A stretch of DNA of 64,000 bases, taken from the NCBI GenBank assembly GCA_030691385.1, contig JAUYEI010000014.1:8908-72907 (forward strand), given 5' to 3'. The notes under the pieces were generated by a model. It was not told the origin of the DNA and did not search any database. It saw nothing but the letters and a program-made list of their open reading frames with translations. Position numbers and translations under genes: made by a program. Shown piece after piece: positions 3,252 through 50,546 of this stretch. Source of the DNA: Azonexus sp. GTDB lineage: Bacteria > Pseudomonadota > Gammaproteobacteria > Burkholderiales > Rhodocyclaceae. Each line of letters begins with the position of its first letter. The stretch's first letter is position 1.

Positions 3252-4049
3252 TTATTTGGCAGAACGGCGACGGCGGAGAGCACCAACGCCGAGCAAACCC
3301 AAGCCAACCAGAGCCAGAGAAGCGGGTTCAGGAACAACGGTGACTTGGTTGATGGTCAAGTCAAGTGCAACTTTGCTGCCAGTCGGGTCAATAATGGCCT
3401 GCAATGCGCCAAGATTTCCCCAATCAACCGCGCCGCCAGCGCCACAGGTGACGACAACGCCCGGAAGGCTGAACGTGTTGGTACAGTCAAGGAAGCCCAG
3501 CAGCGGAAGAAGACTTGATACGCCATTCGGAAGTACGGCGGGATTTACTTCGTGAGCGATCAAAGATACCTTGGACCATTGGGTGCTTGAGGTAAAGGCA
3601 CCGAGTTCAAAACCAAAATCGCCATCGGAAAAAATGGTCTTCAGCTCAATAAAAGTTCCGAAAGGATTGAACGATGCACCAAGTCCGAATATCGTCGGAT
3701 CCGAGAAAGACATTGCTGCGGTAGAGCCATCCCAACGAACCAAACCACGGCCGCCAGTCAGCGACTCAGTGCTGAACGACAGCGCGCCACCGGCAACTTG
3801 AATGCTGGCGGAACCACCAGGGTTAAACGGATCTTGATTCAGCACTTCGACACCAATGTCGCGATATCCGCCGATGATATCCGTGCCACCAGTCGCCACT
3901 TGAGAGAACAAAGCGTTACCATCAACGACGGTATCGGTGAGTTTGGCTTGTGAGGTGCTAAACAGGTCGATCGTGCTGATCAACGCTGCGTTTGCAGCGG
4001 AACTGAACGACAGTGCGACTACTGCTGCCGCGATAAGAGTTTTTTTCAT
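3252..4049 (-). CDS. PEP-CTERM sorting domain-containing secreted protein
   Basis: Signal peptide MKKTLIAAAVVALSFSSAANA (ATG 4049, GGAG RBS). C-terminus VPEPASLALVGLGLLGVGALRRRRSAK = PEP motif + TM helix + basic tail. Confidence 0.95.
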   Translation of the reverse strand: MKKTLIAAAVVALSFSSAANAALISTIDLFSTSQAKLTDTVVDGNALFSQVATGGTDIIGGYRDIGVEVLNQDPFNPGGSASIQVAGGALSFSTESLTGGRGLVRWDGSTAAMSFSDPTIFGLGASFNPFGTFIELKTIFSDGDFGFELGAFTSSTQWSKVSLIAHEVNPAVLPNGVSSLLPLLGFLDCTNTFSLPGVVVTCGAGGAVDWGNLGALQAIIDPTGSKVALDLTINQVTVVPEPASLALVGLGLLGVGALRRRRSAK

Positions 4050-4109
4050 GAGGATTCTCCGATGTGTCTGGATGGAAATTACAGTGTTTGAACTTACGCA
4101 GTGATCTAA

Positions 4110-4125
4110 AGCGATATGCGTGCCA
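4110..4125 (-). promoter_or_regulatory. sigma54 (-24/-12) promoter of the PEP-CTERM gene
   Basis: Minus strand TGGCACGCATATCGCT = GG-N10-GC, close to consensus TGGCAC-N5-TTGCW. Confidence 0.75.
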
Positions 4126-42979: not shown

Positions 42980-44644
42980 TTAGCGCGTAATCGGCTTGTA
43001 GCGAATCCGCTTGGGCTTGGCACCTTCTTCGCCCAGACGCTTGCGCTTGTCTTCCTCGTATTCCTGGAAATTGCCTTCGAAGAAATTCCACTGCGAATCG
43101 CCTTCGGCCGCGAGGATGTGCGTACAAATGCGGTCGAGGAACCAGCGATCATGCGAGATGACCATCGCGCAGCCGGGGAATTCGAGCAGGGCGTCTTCCA
43201 GCGCGCGCAGCGTTTCGACGTCGAGGTCGTTCGACGGTTCGTCGAGCAGCAGCACGTTGCCGCCCGTCATCAGCGTCTTGGCCAGGTGCAGGCGACCGCG
43301 TTCGCCGCCGGACAGATTGCCGACCTGCTTGCCCTGGTCGGCGCCCTTGAAGTTGAAGCGGCCGATGTAGGCGCGTGACGGCATTTCAAACTTGCCGATC
43401 TGCAGGATGTCGCTGCCTTGGGCGAGTTCCTCGAATACTGTCTTCGAGCCATCCAGGCAGTCACGCGATTGGTCCACATAGGCCATCTTGACCGTCGGGC
43501 CGATGTCGACCGTGCCGGAGTCGGGCTGTTGCTGGCCGGTGATCATCTTGAACAGGGTCGATTTACCGGCACCGTTCGGGCCGATGATGCCGACGATGGC
43601 GCCGGCCGGGATGGTGAAGCTGACGTTGTCCATGAGCAGCTTGTCGCCGAAGGACTTGGTGACGCCGTTGAATTCGATGACCTTGCCGCCCAGACGGTCG
43701 CCGACCGGGATGAAGATTTCCTGGGTCTCGTTGCGTTTCTGGTATTCCTGGCTCGACAACTCTTCAAAACGGGCGATGCGGGACTTCGATTTGGCCTGGC
43801 GCGCCTTGGGGTTTGAACGCACCCATTCCAGTTCCTGCTTCATCGCCTTCATGTGGGCGTCGATCTGCTTGTTTTCCGTTTCCAGGCGGGCTTCCTTCTG
43901 CTCCAGCCAGCTAGAGTAGTTGCCCTTGTACGGAATGCCGTGGCCGCGGTCGAGTTCGAGAATCCATTCGGCAGCGTTGTCGAGGAAATAGCGGTCGTGG
44001 GTGACGGCGACGACGGTGCCGGGGAAGCGGACGAGGAATTGTTCGAGCCATTCGACCGATTCGGCGTCGAGGTGATTGGTCGGTTCGTCGAGCAAAAGCA
44101 TGTCCGGCTTGGCGAGCAGCAGCTTGCACAGCGCGACGCGACGCTTCTCGCCGCCGGACAGGTTGCCGATCACGGCCTCCCAGGGCGGCAGGCGCAGGGC
44201 GTCAGCGGCCAGTTCCATCTGTGCTTCGGTGTCGGAGCCGGCGGTGGAAATGATCGCTTCGAGGCGGGCCTGTTCTTCGGCCAGCTTGTCGAAATCAGCT
44301 TCCGGGTCGGCGTAGGCGGCATAGACCTCATCGAGCTTGGCCTGGGCCTGCATCACTTCGCCGAGCGCCGATTCGACTTCCTCGCGCACCGTCTTGGCGG
44401 CATCGAGCTGCGGCTCCTGCGGCAGGTAGCCGATGGAAACGCCGGCCAGGTGTTGCACTTCGCCGTCGTATTCCTTGTCCACGCCGGCCATGATCTTGAG
44501 CACGGTCGATTTGCCCGAGCCGTTCAGGCCGAGCAGGCCGATCTTGGCGCCGGGGAAGAAAGAGAGGGAAATATCCTTGATGATCTGCCGCTTGGGCGGA
44601 ACGATCTTGCTCACGCGGAGCATGGACATGACGTATTGAGCCAT
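42980..44644 (-). CDS. ettA: Energy-dependent translational throttle protein EttA (ABC-F)
   Basis: MAQYVMSM, ISLSFFPGAKIG.LGLNGSGKST, two ABC domains, WVRSNPKARQAKSK linker. Confidence 0.95.
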   Translation of the reverse strand: MAQYVMSMLRVSKIVPPKRQIIKDISLSFFPGAKIGLLGLNGSGKSTVLKIMAGVDKEYDGEVQHLAGVSIGYLPQEPQLDAAKTVREEVESALGEVMQAQAKLDEVYAAYADPEADFDKLAEEQARLEAIISTAGSDTEAQMELAADALRLPPWEAVIGNLSGGEKRRVALCKLLLAKPDMLLLDEPTNHLDAESVEWLEQFLVRFPGTVVAVTHDRYFLDNAAEWILELDRGHGIPYKGNYSSWLEQKEARLETENKQIDAHMKAMKQELEWVRSNPKARQAKSKSRIARFEELSSQEYQKRNETQEIFIPVGDRLGGKVIEFNGVTKSFGDKLLMDNVSFTIPAGAIVGIIGPNGAGKSTLFKMITGQQQPDSGTVDIGPTVKMAYVDQSRDCLDGSKTVFEELAQGSDILQIGKFEMPSRAYIGRFNFKGADQGKQVGNLSGGERGRLHLAKTLMTGGNVLLLDEPSNDLDVETLRALEDALLEFPGCAMVISHDRWFLDRICTHILAAEGDSQWNFFEGNFQEYEEDKRKRLGEEGAKPKRIRYKPITR

Positions 44645-44762
44645 TGAACAACCTACCTGTCGTCGTAAAGATTAATGATGCGCGAGTCTACGAGGCTTCA
44701 ATGCAAATGACCAGCCTCCCGAAGCTCGGGTGCTGGTCATTTACGTTGAAGCGAAGGGAAAA

Positions 44763-45392
44763 CTAGAAGCTCAGACTGCCGAGCGGACGGTGCAGCAGCA
44801 CCGCCGGCGCATCCACCCGGGGGCAGGTGCGAACGGTACCAATCTGCGAAAACCCGAATTCCCGGCGGTAGTAGGCCGCATGACGCGGATTGACTTCGAT
44901 GACCGCATCGGTCACGCCAAAAACTGCCCGGGCGTATTGATAACTTGAGCGGAAAAGTGATTTCAGCAATTCGGGATCATGGGCATCGACATCCACCGCC
45001 AGCCTTGTTACTTCGCAGAGAACGCGGGACGGCTGGCGCAGCCCGGCCAGTTCCTCGGCGTAGAGATTGTCGGCGAGCAGGCCGGCGCTGGAATCGCGCG
45101 AAGCGGTCAGCGTCGCCACCAGTTCGCCCTCCAGCCAGGCGCCCAGCGTCGCGTGATTCGGATCTTCGATCAGTTGTCGCGGTGGCGAAATCCGGTAGCC
45201 GCGCCAGGCGTACATGCGGCGAACCAGGGCGCTGCAGGCACGGTGCTGGTGGTAGCTCACGGCTGGGGCAACCACCAGTTCCGGTTGCTCAAAACCCCTG
45301 CTGGAGCCGAGCGAACCCGGCCGCAAGGCAGCTAGCATTAAGCCGGGCCGGAGCGTCGAACTTGAGGGTATGACGTTTTGCATAGTCTGCAT
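44763..45392 (-). CDS. FeeM-type N-acyl amino acid synthase (GNAT-like)
   Basis: RRMYAWRGY, GLLADNLY, LCEVTRLAV, VIEVNPRHAAYY...GF, CPRVDAPAVLL match the FeeM/NAS catalytic domain as recalled. ATG at 45392 or 45383. Confidence 0.75.
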   Translation of the reverse strand: MQTMQNVIPSSSTLRPGLMLAALRPGSLGSSRGFEQPELVVAPAVSYHQHRACSALVRRMYAWRGYRISPPRQLIEDPNHATLGAWLEGELVATLTASRDSSAGLLADNLYAEELAGLRQPSRVLCEVTRLAVDVDAHDPELLKSLFRSSYQYARAVFGVTDAVIEVNPRHAAYYRREFGFSQIGTVRTCPRVDAPAVLLHRPLGSLSF

Positions 45393-45415
45393 TCTATGGC
45401 TTATGCAATTTGCAA

Positions 45416-45976
45416 TCAACCGGCTACGGCAACGGCGCTGAGTGTTTTTGCCGTTTCGTCGCGGAGGTGAAAGGGCGTCGATTTCTCGGCCGACAGGGCG
45501 TTGATGTCGCCGCACAATTCGCCGCCTTCATCGATGACCAGCTTGCCGTAGCGGATCTTGCCGTGCACCTTGCCGGTCGCGTGGATGATCAGTTGCGAGC
45601 GGGCAGTCAGTTCGCCTTCGAAGCAGCCGTGAATTTCGGCGATGTCGATGCTGACCTTGCCCGAGAACGAGCCATTGTCGGCGATGCGGATAACCCGGCT
45701 GTCCATGGTCGCTTCGACGCGCCCTTCGACGACCAGCGTGTCGCAATCGAGAATTTCGGCGCCCTTGAGTTTGACATCGGGGCCGACGATCAGGCGGGCG
45801 CCCATGACGTTTTCAGCCGGCGACTCGGTCTTTTCCGGCTGCGGGGCTGGTGTAGCTGCTGTGTTGCTTGGTGCAGCAGAGACGTTAAGGTTGCTGGCGG
45901 CACTGCCCAGAATATTATTGACCTCCTTGTGGGTGATGGCGTCATTGCGATTGGGGATGCTGGGTTTGTTGAACAC
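45416..45976 (-). CDS. Bactofilin (polymer-forming cytoskeletal protein)
   Basis: Disordered N-terminus, then LIVGPDVKLKG...LVVEGRVE...IHGCFEGEL...TGKVHGKIRYGKLVIDEGG beta-helix repeats. GTG start with GGGAG RBS. Confidence 0.88.
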   Translation of the reverse strand: MFNKPSIPNRNDAITHKEVNNILGSAASNLNVSAAPSNTAATPAPQPEKTESPAENVMGARLIVGPDVKLKGAEILDCDTLVVEGRVEATMDSRVIRIADNGSFSGKVSIDIAEIHGCFEGELTARSQLIIHATGKVHGKIRYGKLVIDEGGELCGDINALSAEKSTPFHLRDETAKTLSAVAVAG

Positions 45977-46024
45977 GTTGACTCCCGTCTTGAGGTTTCG
46001 ATGAATGGCGGACCGGAACTCCAG

Positions 46025-46040
46025 TGCGATAAGCGTGCCA
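46025..46040 (-). promoter_or_regulatory. sigma54 promoter of the bactofilin-FeeM operon
   Basis: Minus strand TGGCACGCTTATCGCA (GG-N10-GC). Confidence 0.78.
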
Positions 46041-46059
46041 TGTAATCAAGGTATCAGTT

Positions 46060-46072
46060 AATCAATGACTTA
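46060..46072 (+). promoter_or_regulatory. IHF binding site
   Basis: AATCAATGACTTA = WATCAANNNNTTR exactly, between the activator sites and the sigma54 core. A second exact match lies on the minus strand at 46205-46217. Confidence 0.7.
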
Positions 46073-46114
46073 CGATTTATTTTAAAAGTTGCTTCGTAAT
46101 TCACAGCCTCGATC

Positions 46115-46198
46115 CGTCGTGAAATTGCGACAGATATTTTTGGTTTTCCCGGCAAAGGCAGCTAATCTAGACCAGAAGCCTGTCGTGAAATTGCGACA
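46115..46198. promoter_or_regulatory. Two GlrR-type activator sites (TGTC-N10-GACA)
   Basis: CGTCGTGAAATTGCGACA (46115-46132) and TGTCGTGAAATTGCGACA (46181-46198): 17-bp direct repeat 66 bp apart. Confidence 0.72.
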
Positions 46199-46330
46199 TG
46201 TTTCTAATCAATTGATTTATAAGTTATAAATTGCTCACCATGGCGGCTGATAGCCTGGTTTCCCGGTGGCCTCCCAGCCGTACCCGCCCGCATGGCGGTT
46301 TAAACTTCAGTTTTAAGACACAGAGCGCCG

Positions 46331-47734
46331 ATGAATCGAATTTCCTTCCGCCAGGGGATGTTGCTTGGCTTTGCCCTGATTGTCCTGCTCCTTGGCGGCG
46401 CGGCGGTGCAAAGCTGGCTGGTTGTAGAGCGGCTGGTCGATCAGAGCCGGCGCAGCAGCGAGCTGGCCATTCAGTTGACGGCGTCGATCCAGGAACTTGG
46501 CGAACGCACCGTCGATATCGAACGCAGCGCGCGGCAGTATCTGGTGCTCGACAATCCGGTCTTCCGCCAGCGCTTCGACGAACACCTGAGCCAGTCGCTG
46601 GCCGTCGTCGATCGGCTCGACACGCTGGCCGCCGAGCCGCTCCAGCCCTTGCTTGGCGGTTGGCGCATGGTCGCCGAGGCGCTGCGCAGCGGCCTCGAAC
46701 AGAACATTCCCCAAGCCGAGATCATTCCCCTGCTGGCCCGCATGGCCGAGCTCGATGGCCTGTTGAAGCAGGCCGGGCAACGCTGGATTGAAGGGCAGAA
46801 TCGCAAGTCGCTGGAAGACCTCGAGACCAACCGCTTGCGCCTGGGCGGGCGCATTGCCCTGGCCCTCTGTGGCGCGCTGCTCGTCGCGCTGGCCATGGGC
46901 TGGTGGCTGGTTCGGCCGGTGCGCCACCTTGAGCAGGCGATCATCCGGCTCGGCGCCAGCCGTTTCGACGAAGCCATCACGGTCAGCGGCCCGGCCGACT
47001 TGCGCCAGCTCGGCAAGCGGCTGGACTGGTTGCGCCAGCGTCTGGCCGAGTTGGAGGCGGACCGTGAGCGGGCCTTGCGCCATGTCTCGCACGAATTGAA
47101 AACGCCGCTGACGGCACTCAAGGAAGGCGTCTCCTTGCTCCGCGAGGAAGTCCCCGGACCGCTGGCAGCAGGGCAGCGCGAGGTGGTTGATATCCTGCAG
47201 CACAACGTGATCAGCCTGCAGCAGCAAATCGAGAGCCTGCTGACGCTCAATGCCGCCGCCTTCGAGGCGCGTCGCCTGCAAATTGCCCCGACCCGGCTGC
47301 GCCGGCTGCTCAGCACGGTCGCCCAGCGCCGCGAACTGCACAGCCAGTCGCGGCAGTTGAAGATCGTCATCGAGTCCTCGCAGGAAACGGCCATGCTCGA
47401 CGCCGAGAAAATGACGGTCGTGCTCGACAATCTGTTGTCCAACGCCATCGATTTCAGCCCCGAGAACGGCGAAATCCGCCTCTCGGTCAGCCACATTGAA
47501 GGCCTCTGGCGCTTCGAGTGTGTCGATCAGGGGCCGGGCGTCGCCGAGGAAGACCGGCAACGCATCTTCGAGCCCTTTGTCCAGGGCCAGCGCTCGGCGC
47601 CGGCGCCGCGCCAGGGTAGCGGCGTCGGGCTTTCCATCGTGCGCGAGCTGGTGCGGGCGATGGGCGGCACGGTGTACCTCGTCCCGCAAGAAACGGGCGC
47701 CCATTTTTGTGTGGAAATACCTGATGAGCAGTAA
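46331..47734 (+). CDS. glrK: Sensor histidine kinase GlrK/QseE-like
   Basis: 2 TM + HAMP, LRHVSHELKTPL, NLLSNAIDFSP, DQGPG, GSGVGLSIV. Synteny with lipoprotein and sigma54 response regulator. Confidence 0.8.
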   Translation: MNRISFRQGMLLGFALIVLLLGGAAVQSWLVVERLVDQSRRSSELAIQLTASIQELGERTVDIERSARQYLVLDNPVFRQRFDEHLSQSLAVVDRLDTLAAEPLQPLLGGWRMVAEALRSGLEQNIPQAEIIPLLARMAELDGLLKQAGQRWIEGQNRKSLEDLETNRLRLGGRIALALCGALLVALAMGWWLVRPVRHLEQAIIRLGASRFDEAITVSGPADLRQLGKRLDWLRQRLAELEADRERALRHVSHELKTPLTALKEGVSLLREEVPGPLAAGQREVVDILQHNVISLQQQIESLLTLNAAAFEARRLQIAPTRLRRLLSTVAQRRELHSQSRQLKIVIESSQETAMLDAEKMTVVLDNLLSNAIDFSPENGEIRLSVSHIEGLWRFECVDQGPGVAEEDRQRIFEPFVQGQRSAPAPRQGSGVGLSIVRELVRAMGGTVYLVPQETGAHFCVEIPDEQ

Positions 47735-48284
47735 ATATCCGACGTTTTTCCGCCGCGTGGCGGTTTTCATTTTTGGCCTTTTTTTCGGGTTGACCGTAGC
47801 AGGCTGCGCTTCCGGCCCATTGGCCAGGAAACTGCACCTCGAAGACACCAGTCCGGAGGCTGCACTGGTCTATAACCAGAGCCTGTCGCGCCTGACGCCG
47901 GCCGAACTGGGCCGCGAACGCACGGTGCTCGTTGCCGTGCCGCAGACGCCCTTCACGCAGGTCAGGATGGCCTTGCTGCTCGGGCATCCGCGCGTCCAGC
48001 AGGATCTCGGCAAGGGGCTGGCGCTGCTCGAAGGCGTACTCAAATCGAGCGAACCGGCAGCGGCGCCTTTTCACCCGCTGGCCCGGCAACTCGCCGACAA
48101 CTACCAGGAACGCATGAAACTCGAAAACCAACTGGAAAAGCAGGGCCTGCTCTTGAGCCAGCAACTGAAGGACAGCCAGCGCAAGACGGCCGAACTGCAG
48201 GAAAAACTCGACAGTCTGGCCAACATCGAACAAACACTGATCCCGCGCCCGCGCGTTGTCAGCCCGGATGGAGGCAAGCGGTAA
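47724..48284 (+). CDS. QseG/YfhG-like outer-membrane lipoprotein
   Basis: Lipobox VAGC after a hydrophobic signal, helical/coiled-coil C-terminus (LQEKLDSLANIEQTL). Located between kinase and regulator. Confidence 0.72.
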   Translation: MSSKYPTFFRRVAVFIFGLFFGLTVAGCASGPLARKLHLEDTSPEAALVYNQSLSRLTPAELGRERTVLVAVPQTPFTQVRMALLLGHPRVQQDLGKGLALLEGVLKSSEPAAAPFHPLARQLADNYQERMKLENQLEKQGLLLSQQLKDSQRKTAELQEKLDSLANIEQTLIPRPRVVSPDGGKR

Positions 48285-49693
48285 TGGCCGGCGCCCACGT
48301 ACTGGTCGTCGACGACGACGACGATATTCTCAAGCTGCTGACCATGCGCCTGCGCGCCAAGGGTTTCCGCATCACCGCTGTCGGTTCGGCCGAGCAGGCG
48401 CTGGCCCAGATCGCCGTCGATCCGCCGCGCGTCGTCGTCAGCGACGTTCGCCTGCCCGGGCTGGACGGCCTGGCGCTGTTCGAGGAAATCCGCCGGACCC
48501 GGCCAACGCTGCCGGTCATCCTGCTCACCGCCCACGGCAATATCCCCGATGCCGTCGCTGCCACCTCGCGCGGCGTTTTCGGCTACCTGACCAAACCCTT
48601 CGACAGCCAGATCCTGCTCGAAAAGATCGACCGTGCCCTGCAACTCTCGGCGCCGACCTCGCACCCAGGTGACGAGCCACGCGCGGCCGGGAAGGGCGAC
48701 GACGCCTGGATGGAAGGTGTCATCTTCCGCAGTAGCCGGATGGCCGAACTGATGGCCGAGGCGCGCATGGTCGCCGCCTCCGATGCCAGCGTGCTGATCC
48801 GCGGCGAAAGCGGCAGCGGCAAGGAAGTCCTGGCCCGCGCCATCCACCGCGCCAGTCCGCGCGCCAAGGGGCCATTCGTCGCCATCAACTGCGGTGCCAT
48901 TCCCGAACAACTGCTTGAATCCGAACTCTTCGGCCACGCCAAAGGCGCCTTCACCGGTGCCGGTGCCAGTCGTGTCGGCCTGTTCCAGACGGCCAATGGC
49001 GGCACGCTCTTCCTCGACGAAATCGGCGACATGCCGCTCGCCCTGCAGGTCAAGCTGCTGCGCGTGCTGCAGGAACGCGTCGTGCGCCCGGTCGGCACGA
49101 CCAAGGCCGAGCCGGTCGATGTCCGTCTGCTCTCGGCGACCCACCGCGACCTTGATCTTGCGATGGCCCAGGGCCAATTCCGCGAAGACCTCTATTACCG
49201 TCTCGACGTCGTGTCGCTGACCCTGCCCCGCCTCGACGAGCGGCGCGAAGACATCCCGCTGCTCGCCCTGCATTTCGTCCAGCTCCTCGCCGGAAAATAC
49301 GGCAAACCGGTCAACGGCTTCGCCCCCGAAGCGCTGGAGGCGCTGGCCACGGCCGCCTGGCCGGGCAACGTCCGGCAACTGTTCAACGTCGTCGAGCAAA
49401 GCTGCGCGCTGACCTCCACGCCGCTCATCCCGCTGACCCTCGTCCAGCGCGCCCTGCGCGTGCCGGTCATGGACGCCCTCAATTACGCCGAAGCCAAGCA
49501 ACGCTTCGAGCGCAACTACCTCGTCCAGCTTCTCAAACTGACCGACGGCAATGTCGCTGATGCCGCGCGCCTGGCCGAACGCAACCGGACCGAGTTCTAC
49601 CGCCTGTTGCAGAAACACGACCTGACGCCAGCCATGTTCCGCAGCGAAGGCGATAGCCCGCCGTCAGGCGGAGACAAGCCGGGGCCTGCCTAG
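48284..49693 (+). CDS. glrR: sigma54-dependent response regulator GlrR/QseF-like
   Basis: Receiver, GESGSGKE, ESELFGHAKGAFTGA, DEIGDMP, WPGNVRQL, and C-terminal AARLAERNRTEFYRLL, characteristic of GlrR. Confidence 0.85.
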   Translation: MAGAHVLVVDDDDDILKLLTMRLRAKGFRITAVGSAEQALAQIAVDPPRVVVSDVRLPGLDGLALFEEIRRTRPTLPVILLTAHGNIPDAVAATSRGVFGYLTKPFDSQILLEKIDRALQLSAPTSHPGDEPRAAGKGDDAWMEGVIFRSSRMAELMAEARMVAASDASVLIRGESGSGKEVLARAIHRASPRAKGPFVAINCGAIPEQLLESELFGHAKGAFTGAGASRVGLFQTANGGTLFLDEIGDMPLALQVKLLRVLQERVVRPVGTTKAEPVDVRLLSATHRDLDLAMAQGQFREDLYYRLDVVSLTLPRLDERREDIPLLALHFVQLLAGKYGKPVNGFAPEALEALATAAWPGNVRQLFNVVEQSCALTSTPLIPLTLVQRALRVPVMDALNYAEAKQRFERNYLVQLLKLTDGNVADAARLAERNRTEFYRLLQKHDLTPAMFRSEGDSPPSGGDKPGPA

Positions 49694-49702
49694 CGAAACA
49701 GC

Positions 49703-49731
49703 GCCGTCATTCCCGACTGCGCGGGATGACG
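49703..49731 (+). terminator. Hairpin downstream of glrR (terminator or REP-like)
   Basis: CCGTCATTCCCG-actgcg-CGGGATGACGG. Confidence 0.45.
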
Positions 49732-49766
49732 GTTTCCCGGGGATTTCTCCCCGCGGCAAAAACAGC

Positions 49767-49864
49767 TGTCGTTACCGCACGACGGAATACCCGTCGTTGA
49801 AAACGCAAGACTGATTTAATTCGTTGATTTAAAACAAAAATAAATAGCTGGCACGGACTTCGCA
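49767..49864 (+). promoter_or_regulatory. GlrR-type site + IHF site + sigma54 promoter of the BON gene
   Basis: TGTCGTTACCGCACGACG (49767-49784); IHF on the minus strand AATCAACGAATTA (49817-49829); TGGCACGGACTTCGCA (49849-49864). Confidence 0.72.
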
Positions 49865-49901
49865 ATAGGCTGATGGCAATCAACAATAAAAGGGAATAGC
49901 C

Positions 49902-50243
49902 ATGTTCAAACGTCACCTCATGGTCGCCAGCATCACCGCTGCAGCCACCTTTGCCGGCCTCGGCCTTGCCGCCTTCGCCACCGACGATCCGCAACTGCTC
50001 GCCGCGATGGTGGCCAACAACGAAGCTCAGGACGCGGCCCTCATCGACAAGGTCGAAACCCTGCTGCGCACCGACATCGGTCTGGCCGGTTCGCAGTTCC
50101 GTGTCCTTGCCAAATCAGCCGTCGTTACCGTTGGCGGCTCGGTGCCCGACGAACATGCGCTGCGCCGGGCGATCGACCTCGCCAGTGGTGTTCGCGGCGT
50201 GCGTGAAGTGCGCAACGCCATGGAGGTCGATGTCCCAAAGTAA
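49902..50243 (+). CDS. Secreted single BON-domain protein
   Basis: Signal peptide, DAALIDKVETLL..., VVTVGGSVP, ASGVRGVREVRNAM. AGGG RBS. Confidence 0.85.
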   Translation: MFKRHLMVASITAAATFAGLGLAAFATDDPQLLAAMVANNEAQDAALIDKVETLLRTDIGLAGSQFRVLAKSAVVTVGGSVPDEHALRRAIDLASGVRGVREVRNAMEVDVPK

Positions 50244-50279
50244 GGGGAGGGGGCGATTCCGGCTTCCCGAAAGCGCTTT

Positions 50280-50546
50280 TCAGTCTGATTCCAGAGTCAC
50301 CAGTAGCGCGCCTTCGGCGACTGTATCGCCCTCTGTAACGTGGATTTGAACCACCCGGCCCGCGTGCGGGCTGGGAATATCCAGCGCCACCTTGCCGGTT
50401 TCCAGCGTCAGAATGTTGTCGTCGCGCTCCACCCTGTCGCCAACCGCCACCAGCAATTCGAGAATGAATACATCGCCGCTCGCGCACGAACCGCAACTCG
50501 ACCAGCACTCGGGGTACATCGGCATGCGAACGAAGGAGAAAGACAT
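50280..50546 (-). CDS. Stand-alone lipoyl/biotinyl carrier domain with Cys-rich insert
   Basis: VAVGDRV...LTLETGKVALDIPSPHAGRV..IHV.EGDTV.EG aligns to E2 lipoyl domains. N-terminal ECWSSCGSC. Confidence 0.75.
   Translation of the reverse strand: MSFSFVRMPMYPECWSSCGSCASGDVFILELLVAVGDRVERDDNILTLETGKVALDIPSPHAGRVVQIHVTEGDTVAEGALLVTLESD

What the first reader, a model, noticed from the sequence alone, without database searches (positions are those of the whole stretch)
44763..46040. Bactofilin and N-acyl amino acid synthase in one sigma54 operon
Seen: bactofilin stop is 23 bp from the FeeM-type start, a single sigma54 promoter lies upstream, and a hairpin follows (44705-44742). Established: bactofilins are polymerising scaffolds that localise envelope enzymes, and FeeM-type enzymes make long-chain N-acyl amino acids from acyl-ACP. 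I do not recall this pairing being described. Inference: a cytoskeletal scaffold localises or is co-induced with synthesis of an amphiphilic lipid during envelope stress.
Basis: partly seen in the sequence, partly recalled or inferred. Interest (0 to 1): 0.7.

Follow-up and report, generated by a model that had tools for sequence, protein, structure and literature searches.

The report
Stress-switched bactofilin gene with lipid-amide synthase
A membrane-type cytoskeletal protein (bactofilin) and a FeeM-type N-acyl amino acid synthase lie side by side behind a sigma-54 promoter driven by a neighbouring GlrK/GlrR-type envelope sensor; the pairing is real and kept in about fifty related species, but it arose in one lineage, the synthase seems to have its own promoter, and no evidence shows that the bactofilin scaffolds the enzyme.

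Summary
On the minus strand, a bactofilin gene (45976-45416) is followed by a FeeM-family gene. A near-consensus sigma-54 promoter, an IHF-like site and two GlrR-type TGTC-N10-GACA sites lie upstream, and a very stable hairpin lies downstream. The unit is divergent from a glrK/lipoprotein/glrR operon.

In related genomes, 54 of 57 members of one FeeM clade (Dechloromonas, Azonexus, Ferribacterium, Accumulibacter, Propionivibrio) keep the pair. The promoter and enhancer sites sit at fixed spacing.

Three results weaken the scaffold reading:
1. The same tightly conserved bactofilin orthologue stands alone in many other Burkholderiales families. It often still has sigma-54 and GlrR-type sites, so FeeM is a late, lineage-specific addition.
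2. In 36 of 53 linked loci, including this window, the junction holds a conserved sigma-70-type promoter (TTGAnn-17-TAGAAT-7-ATG). This would give a leaderless FeeM mRNA, so "a single sigma-54 promoter" is probably wrong.
3. Two MAGs have lost the bactofilin core but kept FeeM behind the sigma-54 promoter.

Most likely this is co-regulated envelope-stress output, not a demonstrated scaffold-client pair. I found no paper describing it. This scan had already noted the same pairing on other genomes (e1-4216421, e1-4216418).

The parts
46181..46198 (-). Distal GlrR-type enhancer site, TGTCGCAATTTCACGACA (TGTC-N10-GACA), about 158 nt upstream of the -24 element
   Evidence: The site is conserved at the same offset in about 45 related loci. 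The consensus TGTCN10GACA is taken from PMC3045617.
46115..46132 (-). Proximal GlrR-type enhancer site, TGTCGCAATTTCACGACG, about 92 nt upstream of the -24 element
46060..46072 (+). IHF-like site AATCAATGACTTA (WATCARNNNNTTR), between the enhancer sites and the promoter
   Evidence: 7 matches in the window against 1.57 expected. Three of them lie in the two GlrR-type control regions.
46025..46040 (-). Sigma-54 -24/-12 promoter, TGGCACGCTTATCGCA
   Evidence: The element is present at a fixed distance from the start codon in 46 of 51 related loci.
45416..45976 (-). Bactofilin gene, 186 aa. It has an N-terminal MFNK membrane-targeting-like peptide, a roughly 55-aa low-complexity linker, the bactofilin domain at residues 63-158, and a short tail.
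   Evidence: The membrane-targeting consensus MFSKKKK is from PMC12448750.
45391..45419 (-). Sigma-70-type promoter candidate for FeeM: -35 TTGATT (45419-45414, overlapping the GGT-TGA end of the bactofilin gene), a 17-nt spacer, and -10 TAGAAT (45396-45391)
   Evidence: One search found the match. Searches show the geometry is conserved in 36 of 53 linked loci, with a forced synonymous T and the L016 case.
44763..45383 (-). FeeM-family N-acyl amino acid synthase gene, 206 aa from the conserved ATG at 45383 (209 aa if translation starts at 45392). The N-terminus is disordered, followed by a FeeM fold with the invariant catalytic-type Glu.
44695..44752 (-). Very stable hairpin after the FeeM stop codon, with no U-tract; ettA starts at 44644
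   Evidence: -40.1 kcal/mol, z = -7.8.
46331..47734 (+). GlrK-like sensor histidine kinase (HAMP, HisKA, HATPase_c), transcribed divergently from the bactofilin gene
47724..48284 (+). QseG-position lipoprotein, 186 aa, with lipobox LTVAGC; no family match
48284..49693 (+). GlrR-like sigma-54 activator (receiver, AAA+ and HTH domains)
   Evidence: NF011695 GlrR at 603.9 bits is the best hit but lies below the equivalog cut-off of 763.
49767..50243 (+). Second output of the same regulator: site TGTCGTTACCGCACGACG (49767-49784), IHF-like site (49817-49829), sigma-54 promoter (49849-49864), and a BON-domain gene (49902-50243)

Best explanation
The locus is one of only two outputs of a GlrK / lipoprotein / GlrR-type envelope sensor. 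When phosphorylated, the GlrR-like activator binds two TGTC-N10-GACA sites. With IHF bending the DNA, it opens the sigma-54 promoter at 46040-46025 and transcribes a membrane-type bactofilin. No terminator follows the bactofilin gene, so the transcript runs on into a FeeM-type N-acyl amino acid synthase gene, which is therefore co-induced. In this branch, FeeM also has its own sigma-70-type promoter overlapping the bactofilin stop codon. Its transcript would begin at or one base before the conserved ATG at 45383, giving a leaderless mRNA and expression independent of GlrR. The bactofilin is the older member of the regulon: it is a stand-alone, often GlrR/sigma-54-marked gene across Burkholderiales. 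FeeM was recruited once, from PEP-CTERM-linked relatives, in the ancestor of Dechloromonas, Azonexus, Accumulibacter and Propionivibrio. The functional link is most likely joint delivery of a membrane-bound polymer and an amphiphilic N-acyl amino acid to the inner membrane during envelope stress. It is probably not an obligatory scaffold-client pair. What is shown: the anatomy, the family memberships, the conservation of the pair and of the control elements, and the single origin. What is inferred: activation by GlrR, read-through, activity of the internal promoter, the enzyme's product, and the stress signal.
For: Family assignment. Both proteins match their Pfam families. The AlphaFold model (pLDDT 82) is closest to FeeM 2G0B, with E 4e-16 and TM 0.74/0.85. 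Glu127 aligns with the FeeM active-site Glu and is invariant in 27 homologues. The role of that Glu is from PMC4897644.

Regulation. The sigma-54 promoter pattern is enriched in the window. GlrR-type sites match the published TGTCN10GACA consensus. An IHF-like site lies between them and the promoter. In the whole 3.45-Mb genome, only two places combine a sigma-54-like element with such a site 50-260 nt upstream, and both flank glrKLR.

Conservation. The arrangement glrR-lipoprotein-glrK <> bactofilin-FeeM is present in about 50 related loci. The promoter is found in 46 of 51 and at least one enhancer site in 51 of 51, at fixed spacing.

Origin. The bactofilin-linked FeeM proteins form one clade (57 rows, SH-aLRT 99). 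Its sister is a Massilia clade that lies in PEP-CTERM/PrsT context.

The bactofilin is older than the pairing. A tight orthologue group (47-72% identity) occurs in about 60 of 301 Burkholderiales genomes, but it is adjacent to FeeM only in the window's own family. It has no conserved neighbour elsewhere. Of 40 unlinked loci, 16 have sigma-54-like and GlrR-type sites in register, against 0.03 expected. GlrR orthologues are present in 5 of 5 such genomes tested.

Internal promoter. TTGAnn-17-TAGAAT-(6 to 8)-ATG occurs in 36 of 53 linked loci. The spacer is always 17 nt and the ATG is always in the FeeM frame. The codon before the stop ends in T in 35 of 36, although GGC is the preferred Gly codon (251 GGC vs 41 GGT). 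In L016 the stop codon is displaced, yet TTGATT is kept at the correct spacing. No Shine-Dalgarno sequence precedes FeeM here, whereas the Accumulibacter/Propionivibrio branch has GGGAG or AGGAG instead.
Against: Read-through and internal-promoter activity are therefore both inferred from sequence alone. Genome-wide, 444 loose sigma-54-like and 110 loose GlrR-type matches would give about 1.5 chance coincidences, so the count of two is not significant on its own; the case rests on location and conservation. The GlrR-like protein scores below NCBIfam's equivalog cut-off. The conserved CATAGAAT could be something other than a -10 element, for example a translation or regulator site. The bactofilin's N-terminal peptide has M1, F2 and K4 but lacks the second lysine of the published motif. 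The enzyme's substrates and product are unknown. Long retention of the pair is also what a true scaffold-client relation would produce.
Confidence: 0.6

Rival explanations
1. Scaffold-client: the bactofilin polymer on the inner membrane recruits or positions FeeM, so that N-acyl amino acid synthesis is localised.
For: The pair has been retained since a single origin, while FeeM identity fell to about 45%. Bactofilins do recruit client enzymes, for example PbpC by BacA (PMC12448750). FeeM here has a roughly 35-residue disordered N-terminal extension that could serve as a docking peptide (pLDDT below 50).
Against: The same bactofilin orthologue works alone in most other families. The FeeM N-terminal extension is poorly conserved. 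L028 and L054 keep FeeM without the bactofilin core. FeeM probably has its own promoter, so the two proteins need not be made together. No interaction test was possible with these tools.
Confidence: 0.15
2. Neighbours with little functional coupling: FeeM was inserted downstream of the bactofilin gene and is expressed mainly from its own sigma-70 promoter as a leaderless mRNA. Adjacency persists through vertical inheritance within one family.
For: The internal promoter geometry is conserved. There is no Shine-Dalgarno sequence for FeeM on the long transcript. The pairing arose once, so about 54 genomes count as one evolutionary event.
Against: In the Accumulibacter/Propionivibrio branch FeeM has an SD and no internal promoter, which implies dependence on the upstream promoter. 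Where the bactofilin core was lost, FeeM still lies behind the sigma-54 promoter. In L028 a second copy of the promoter-like sequence stands between the bactofilin remnant and FeeM, and in L054 the genes are fused in frame. Flanking genes differ (ettA versus clpB) while the pair stays together.
Confidence: 0.15
3. Direct chemical coupling: the FeeM product (an anionic amphiphile), or acylation by FeeM, alters the membrane binding or polymerisation of the bactofilin.
For: Membrane binding of bactofilins depends on lipid head-group charge and is cooperative with polymerisation (PMC12448750). This bactofilin's targeting peptide lacks the second lysine. In L054 the targeting peptide is fused directly to FeeM, which fits FeeM acting at the membrane.
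Against: This is speculation with no test here. Orthologous bactofilins with the same N-terminus exist without FeeM. FeeM-type enzymes are known to acylate free amino acids, not proteins (PMC4897644).
Confidence: 0.07

Closest known systems
GlrK (QseE) / QseG / GlrR (QseF) of Enterobacteriaceae with the sigma-54 promoters of glmY and glmZ (and rpoE P2)
   Same: The gene order is kinase, lipoprotein, sigma-54 activator. Enhancer sites match TGTC-N10-GACA. An IHF-like site lies between the enhancer and the -24/-12 promoter. The target gene lies next to the sensor operon.
   Different: The targets are protein genes (bactofilin plus FeeM, and a BON protein), not an sRNA; no Rfam family matches. 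There are two enhancer sites rather than three. The activator scores below the GlrR equivalog cut-off.
[quoted passage not shown] 2011, as cited in PMC4897644)
   Same: Pfam family, predicted fold and the active-site Glu are all shared. The sister clade is PEP-CTERM-linked.
   Different: This copy is not in a PEP-CTERM or biosynthetic cluster. It follows a bactofilin gene inside a GlrR/sigma-54 regulon. It has a disordered N-terminal extension and, in this branch, an apparently leaderless start.
Canonical bactofilins with client enzymes (Caulobacter BacA-PbpC; bactofilin with M23 peptidase pairs)
   Same: It has a bactofilin domain, an N-terminal MF-x-K membrane-targeting-like peptide, and an adjacent enzyme gene.
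   Different: The partner is a cytoplasmic acyltransferase rather than a cell-wall enzyme. Expression depends on sigma-54 and an enhancer. The core is unusually conserved, at roughly 50-70% overall identity and higher in the core across the families of an order. The genome also has a second, housekeeping-type bactofilin elsewhere.

Membership tests
Bactofilin (PF04519) | Bactofilin beta-helical domain detected above the curated threshold | tested here: met
   63.8 bits against a cut-off of 27.9, covering residues 63-158. There is also a weak match to BacA 2N3D, E 0.005.
Bactofilin (PF04519) | N-terminal membrane-targeting peptide (global consensus MFSKKKK, with M1, F2, K4 and K7 important) | tested here: inconclusive
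   The sequence MFNKPSIPNR has M1, F2 and K4 but no K7. The MF/L-x-K/R start is conserved in orthologues across the order.
Bactofilin (PF04519) | Nucleotide-independent polymerisation | not testable with these tools
   This needs purified protein with electron microscopy or sedimentation.
FeeM-type N-acyl amino acid synthase (PF21926, type I NAS) | Family profile match above the curated threshold | tested here: met
   163.9 bits against a cut-off of 27. phmmer against 2G0B gives E 3e-13.
FeeM-type N-acyl amino acid synthase (PF21926, type I NAS) | FeeM fold (a GNAT / AHL-synthase-like fold) | tested here: met
   The AF2 model (pLDDT 82.2) has 2G0B as its best PDB match: E 3.8e-16, TM 0.74/0.85, rmsd 2.1 A. 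The next GNAT matches are at about E 1e-8.
FeeM-type N-acyl amino acid synthase (PF21926, type I NAS) | Active-site glutamate (Glu95 in FeeM; Glu103 in Nas354, shown to be essential) | tested here: met
   E127 (numbered from the ATG at 45392) aligns with the FeeM Glu in the ...LAEVVQFAMD motif and is invariant in 27 homologues. Its role is described in PMC4897644.
FeeM-type N-acyl amino acid synthase (PF21926, type I NAS) | Makes long-chain N-acyl amino acids from acyl-ACP | not testable with these tools
   This needs heterologous expression with LC-MS.
PEP-CTERM/exosortase-linked NAS subset | Gene lies in a PEP-CTERM / exosortase / PrsT neighbourhood | tested here: not met
   The neighbours are the bactofilin gene, glrKLR and ettA. 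The sister Massilia clade does have PrsT-like TPR and PEP-CTERM genes nearby.
GlrK/QseG/GlrR (QseEGF) two-component system | Response regulator is an equivalog of GlrR | tested here: inconclusive
   NF011695 is the best hit at 603.9 bits, but the curated cut-off is 763.
GlrK/QseG/GlrR (QseEGF) two-component system | Kinase-lipoprotein-activator operon, with TGTCN10GACA sites, an IHF site and a sigma-54 promoter at the target | tested here: met
   conserved in relatives.
GlrK/QseG/GlrR (QseEGF) two-component system | Target is the GlmY/GlmZ sRNA | tested here: not met
   No Rfam match at E<=1 in 44400-50400. The promoters precede protein-coding genes.
Single sigma-54 operon (bactofilin-FeeM) | One transcript spans both genes, and there is no other promoter | tested here: inconclusive
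   The gap is 23-32 nt with no terminator, which favours read-through. A conserved sigma-70-type promoter lies at the junction.

The most novel reading that the evidence does not exclude
A sigma-54/GlrR-induced bactofilin and a FeeM-made N-acyl amino acid act together as an inducible inner-membrane repair or remodelling device. Either the lipid changes the local membrane so that the polymer binds, or the polymer positions the synthase. This would be the first bactofilin tied to lipid synthesis rather than cell-wall synthesis, and the first physiological role for a free-standing NAS.
Probability: 0.15. Interest if true: 0.8.

Novelty: new variant of a known kind. Interest (0 to 1): 0.5.

Why it matters
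The physiological role of bacterial N-acyl amino acid synthases is still open. Known bactofilin clients are cell-wall enzymes, and the only well-studied outputs of GlrK/GlrR are the sRNAs GlmY/GlmZ and rpoE. Here a GlrR-type sensor appears to have just two local outputs: bactofilin with FeeM, and a BON protein.

This gives a compact, testable regulon in culturable Dechloromonas strains. It links an envelope sensor to a cytoskeletal polymer and a lipid-amide synthase. It also shows that a highly conserved bactofilin clade across Burkholderiales is likely sigma-54/GlrR-controlled.

The bacteria concerned (Accumulibacter, Dechloromonas, Propionivibrio) are key organisms of phosphorus-removing wastewater plants.

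Tried and rejected
- Hidden sRNA of the GlmY type: no Rfam match at E<=1 in 44400-50400.
- NCBIfam gave no name for the bactofilin, and only a weak PRK14852 hit for FeeM.
- A conserved partner gene of the bactofilin outside the window's family: none found among 20 loci.
- Bactofilin next to the FeeM relatives L059-L080: none. These loci lie in PEP-CTERM/PrsT context.
- The idea that the pairing is widespread in Burkholderiales is rejected. Among 301 sampled genomes, adjacency occurs only in the window's own family.
- Literature: no paper in the searchable library holds 'bactofilin' together with 'N-acyl amino acid'. Searches with RpoN, GlrR, QseF or sigma-54 turned up only two papers that mention bactofilin alongside RpoN; the one I read names bactofilin only in passing, the other (one mention) was not read. 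DUF583 is absent from the sigma-54 comparative paper. Craig et al. 2011 (PMC3187218) is not held.
- The genome-wide count of sigma-54 plus GlrR-site coincidences (2 found, about 1.5 expected with my loose patterns) is not used as statistical support on its own.
- The simple terminator scan did not pick up the hairpin, because it lacks a T-run.
Full report
**Anatomy.** All genes of the finding are on the minus strand.

- The bactofilin gene runs 45976..45416. It has a GTG start five bases after GGGAG and encodes 186 aa. It matches Pfam PF04519 over residues 63-158 (63.8 bits; cut-off 27.9).
- Its N-terminus, MFNKPSIPNR, has three of the four residues that a 2025 eLife study found important in the bactofilin membrane-targeting peptide (consensus MFSKKKK; M1, F2 and K4 are present, K7 is absent).
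- The next gene ends at 44763 and matches Pfam PF21926, FeeM (163.9 bits; cut-off 27).
- Upstream lies TGGCACGCTTATCGCA at 46040-46025. The pattern has 3 matches in the window against 0.35 expected.
- Downstream lies a hairpin at 44695-44752 (-40.1 kcal/mol, z = -7.8) with no U-run.

**Control region.** Upstream of the promoter are two sites, TGTCGCAATTTCACGAC(A/G), at 46115-46132 and 46181-46198. They fit the published GlrR (QseF) consensus TGTCN10GACA. An IHF-like site at 46060-46072 lies between them and the promoter.

The divergent operon encodes three proteins:
- a HAMP/HisKA kinase (46331-47734);
- a 186-aa lipoprotein (47724-48284);
- a receiver/AAA+/HTH sigma-54 activator (48284-49693). 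Its best NCBIfam hit is GlrR (603.9 bits), though this is below the equivalog cut-off of 763.

Downstream of glrR, a second site, IHF-like box and sigma-54 promoter precede a BON-domain gene. In the whole 3.45-Mb genome, these are the only two places where my loose sigma-54 and GlrR-site patterns coincide. About 1.5 coincidences are expected by chance, so the argument rests on their position and conservation, not on the count. No Rfam family, GlmY included, matches the region.

**Is the enzyme a FeeM-type synthase?**
- phmmer finds FeeM (PDB 2G0B) at E 3e-13 over 162 residues.
- An AlphaFold model built on 27 homologues (pLDDT 82.2; residues 1-34 disordered) has 2G0B as its best PDB match: E 3.8e-16, TM 0.74/0.85. 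This is eight orders of magnitude ahead of other GNATs.
- Glu127 aligns with the FeeM active-site Glu and is invariant in the alignment. The equivalent Glu103 of Nas354 was shown to be essential (PMC4897644).

Membership is as good as sequence can make it. The product remains unknown.

**Conservation of the pair.** A scan of one genome per species returned 80 loci. The organism is close to Ferribacterium limneticum (91% identity).

- tblastn and a jackhmmer profile show a bactofilin gene immediately upstream of FeeM in 53 of the fetched loci, all within L001-L058. Nearly all have glrR-lipoprotein-glrK divergent from it.
- The sigma-54 element is found in 46 of 51 intergenic regions and at least one GlrR-type site in all 51, at nearly constant offsets. 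The promoter lies about 55-69 nt before the start in most loci (up to about 158 nt in a few Propionivibrio-type loci), with the sites about 92 and 158 nt further upstream.
- A maximum-likelihood tree puts all bactofilin-linked FeeM proteins in one clade (57 rows including the window; SH-aLRT 99). Its sister is a Massilia clade whose genes lie beside PrsT-like TPR and PEP-CTERM genes. That is the known PEP-CTERM-linked NAS class.

The pairing therefore arose once. It has been kept while FeeM diverged to about 45% identity and while flanking genes changed (ettA in some loci, clpB in others).

**The bactofilin is older than the pairing.** In an even sample of 301 Burkholderiales genomes:
- FeeM-family genes occur in 141.
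- A sharply bounded orthologue group of this bactofilin occurs in about 60 genomes from many families. Members share 47-72% identity (E 1e-30 to 1e-76), and the next-best hits are only about 30% identical.
- The two genes are adjacent only in the window's own family (G000, G130, G216).

I fetched 40 of the unlinked loci. The bactofilin there has no conserved neighbour and is often followed by a terminator. Only one locus (L081) has glrKR beside it, also with a BON gene.

Even so, 16 of the 40 carry a sigma-54-like element and a GlrR-type site in register, against 0.03 expected from shuffles, and 28 carry a GlrR-type site. Each of 5 genomes tested has exactly one GlrR orthologue elsewhere (60-73% identity). 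The core of the protein is very highly conserved across the order. The bactofilin therefore works without FeeM in most lineages, and its sigma-54/GlrR control appears to be ancestral.

**A second promoter at the junction.** FeeM has no Shine-Dalgarno sequence here. Alignment of the junctions shows that the spacer is free to vary except for CATAGAAT and a downstream ATGCA.

In 36 of 53 linked loci the arrangement is TTGAnn, 17 nt, TAGAAT, then 6-8 nt, then ATG:
- the spacer is always 17 nt;
- the -10-like hexamer is TAGAAT in 32 of 36;
- the distance to the ATG is 7 nt in 31 of 36;
- the ATG is always in the FeeM frame.

TTGA is formed by the last base of the final bactofilin codon plus the TGA stop. 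That codon ends in T in 35 of 36 loci (GGT in 32), although GGC outnumbers GGT 251 to 41 in long genes of the window. In L016 the stop codon lies 28 nt further upstream, yet TTGATT is retained at the right spacing inside the intergenic DNA.

This is the geometry of a sigma-70 promoter whose transcript starts at, or one base before, the start codon, giving a leaderless mRNA. In window coordinates the -35 is 45419-45414, the -10 is 45396-45391, and the conserved ATG is 45383. The CDS is then 45383..44763 (206 aa). M4 of the longer reading is nearly invariant in homologues.

The Accumulibacter/Propionivibrio branch lacks this motif and has GGGAG or AGGAG before the start, which is ordinary operon coupling. 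The claim of a single sigma-54 promoter is therefore probably wrong for this window. Read-through from the sigma-54 promoter remains likely, because no terminator intervenes.

**Natural variants.** In L028 (an Accumulibacter MAG), only the first roughly 90 codons of the bactofilin gene remain, and a second copy of the promoter-like sequence TGGCACGAATATCG (the -12 part reads TCGTT rather than TCGCT) stands between that remnant and FeeM. In L054 (an Azonexus MAG), the bactofilin's first roughly 20 codons (MFNQPNFTSPPAPITGKDVK...) are fused in frame to FeeM directly behind the sigma-54 promoter. Both are MAG contigs, so assembly errors cannot be excluded. If real, they show that FeeM is kept under the sigma-54 promoter without the polymer domain. 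The fusion also places the membrane-targeting peptide on the enzyme.

**Reading.** The best-supported account is co-regulation. A GlrK/lipoprotein/GlrR-type sensor switches on a membrane-type bactofilin, with FeeM induced by read-through and a BON protein induced from the second promoter. In this branch, FeeM also has basal, independent expression.

The scaffold-client idea is not excluded, given the long retention of the pair and the disordered N-terminal extension of FeeM. But it has no direct support and several points against it. Envelope stress as the signal is inferred from the E. coli system only.

**Novelty.** I found no paper linking bactofilin with N-acyl amino acid synthases, GlrR/QseF or sigma-54. 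The only publicly documented genomic link for NAS genes that I found is the PEP-CTERM association.

Within this scan, the same pairing and the GlrR-bactofilin wiring were already noted and followed up on other genomes (e1-4216421, e1-4216418, e1-5263735, e1-5266798). Those conclusions agree with mine.

What I add:
- the order-wide distribution of the stand-alone bactofilin;
- the single origin of the linked FeeM clade and its sister group;
- the internal promoter and leaderless start;
- the deletion and fusion variants.

I rate the finding a new variant of known kinds, of moderate interest.

Noticed in passing
window 4048-4125 (-): The third sigma-54 promoter match of the window (TGGCACGCATATCGCT, 4125-4110) lies about 60 nt before a gene starting at 4048. 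Its product ends in a PEP-CTERM motif (PF07589). The genome therefore also has the classical sigma-54 / PEP-CTERM system, separate from the GlrR module.
   Followed up: partly
own genome, G000:C38:13823-15133 (-): A second FeeM-family gene (436 aa; PF21926 at 155.5 bits) has a long C-terminal extension carrying PilZ-like motifs (RRFSVK ... EVSRYG). This resembles the published NAS-PilZ proteins Nas343/Nas354. Pfam itself did not report PilZ.
   Followed up: partly
own genome, G000:C56:20179-20580 (+): A second, shorter bactofilin (133 aa, MFGKK start; PF04519 at 86.4 bits) lies after rplM-rpsI and a 244-aa membrane-protein gene. It is probably the housekeeping paralogue, so the GlrR-controlled copy is an extra, conditional one.
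   Followed up: partly
L054:2060-2820 (+): In an Azonexus MAG, the bactofilin's N-terminal membrane-targeting peptide is fused in frame to FeeM directly behind the sigma-54 promoter. The bactofilin domain is gone.
   Followed up: partly
L028:3340-3700 (+): In Accumulibacter UW18, the bactofilin gene is truncated to about 90 codons. A second copy of the promoter-like sequence TGGCACGAATATCG (the -12 part reads TCGTT rather than TCGCT) stands between the remnant and FeeM. This could be a recombination product or a MAG assembly artefact.
   Followed up: no
window 49767-50243 (+): The BON-domain gene downstream of glrR has its own GlrR-type site, IHF-like site and sigma-54 promoter. L081, from another family, shows the same glrKR + bactofilin + BON module without FeeM.
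   Followed up: partly
L081-L120 (bactofilin loci from other Burkholderiales families): The bactofilin core (LIVGPDVKLKGAEILDCDTLVVEGRVEATMDSRV...GKIRYGKL) is far more conserved across families than is usual for bactofilins, while the N-terminal linker and C-terminal tail are free to vary. Several loci with two GlrR-type sites gave no match to my sigma-54 pattern (L083, L084, L087) and may use a variant -24/-12.
   Followed up: partly
window 46205-46217 (-): A second exact IHF-consensus match (AATCAATTGATTA) lies just beyond the distal GlrR site, towards glrK. Its role, if any, is unknown.
   Followed up: no
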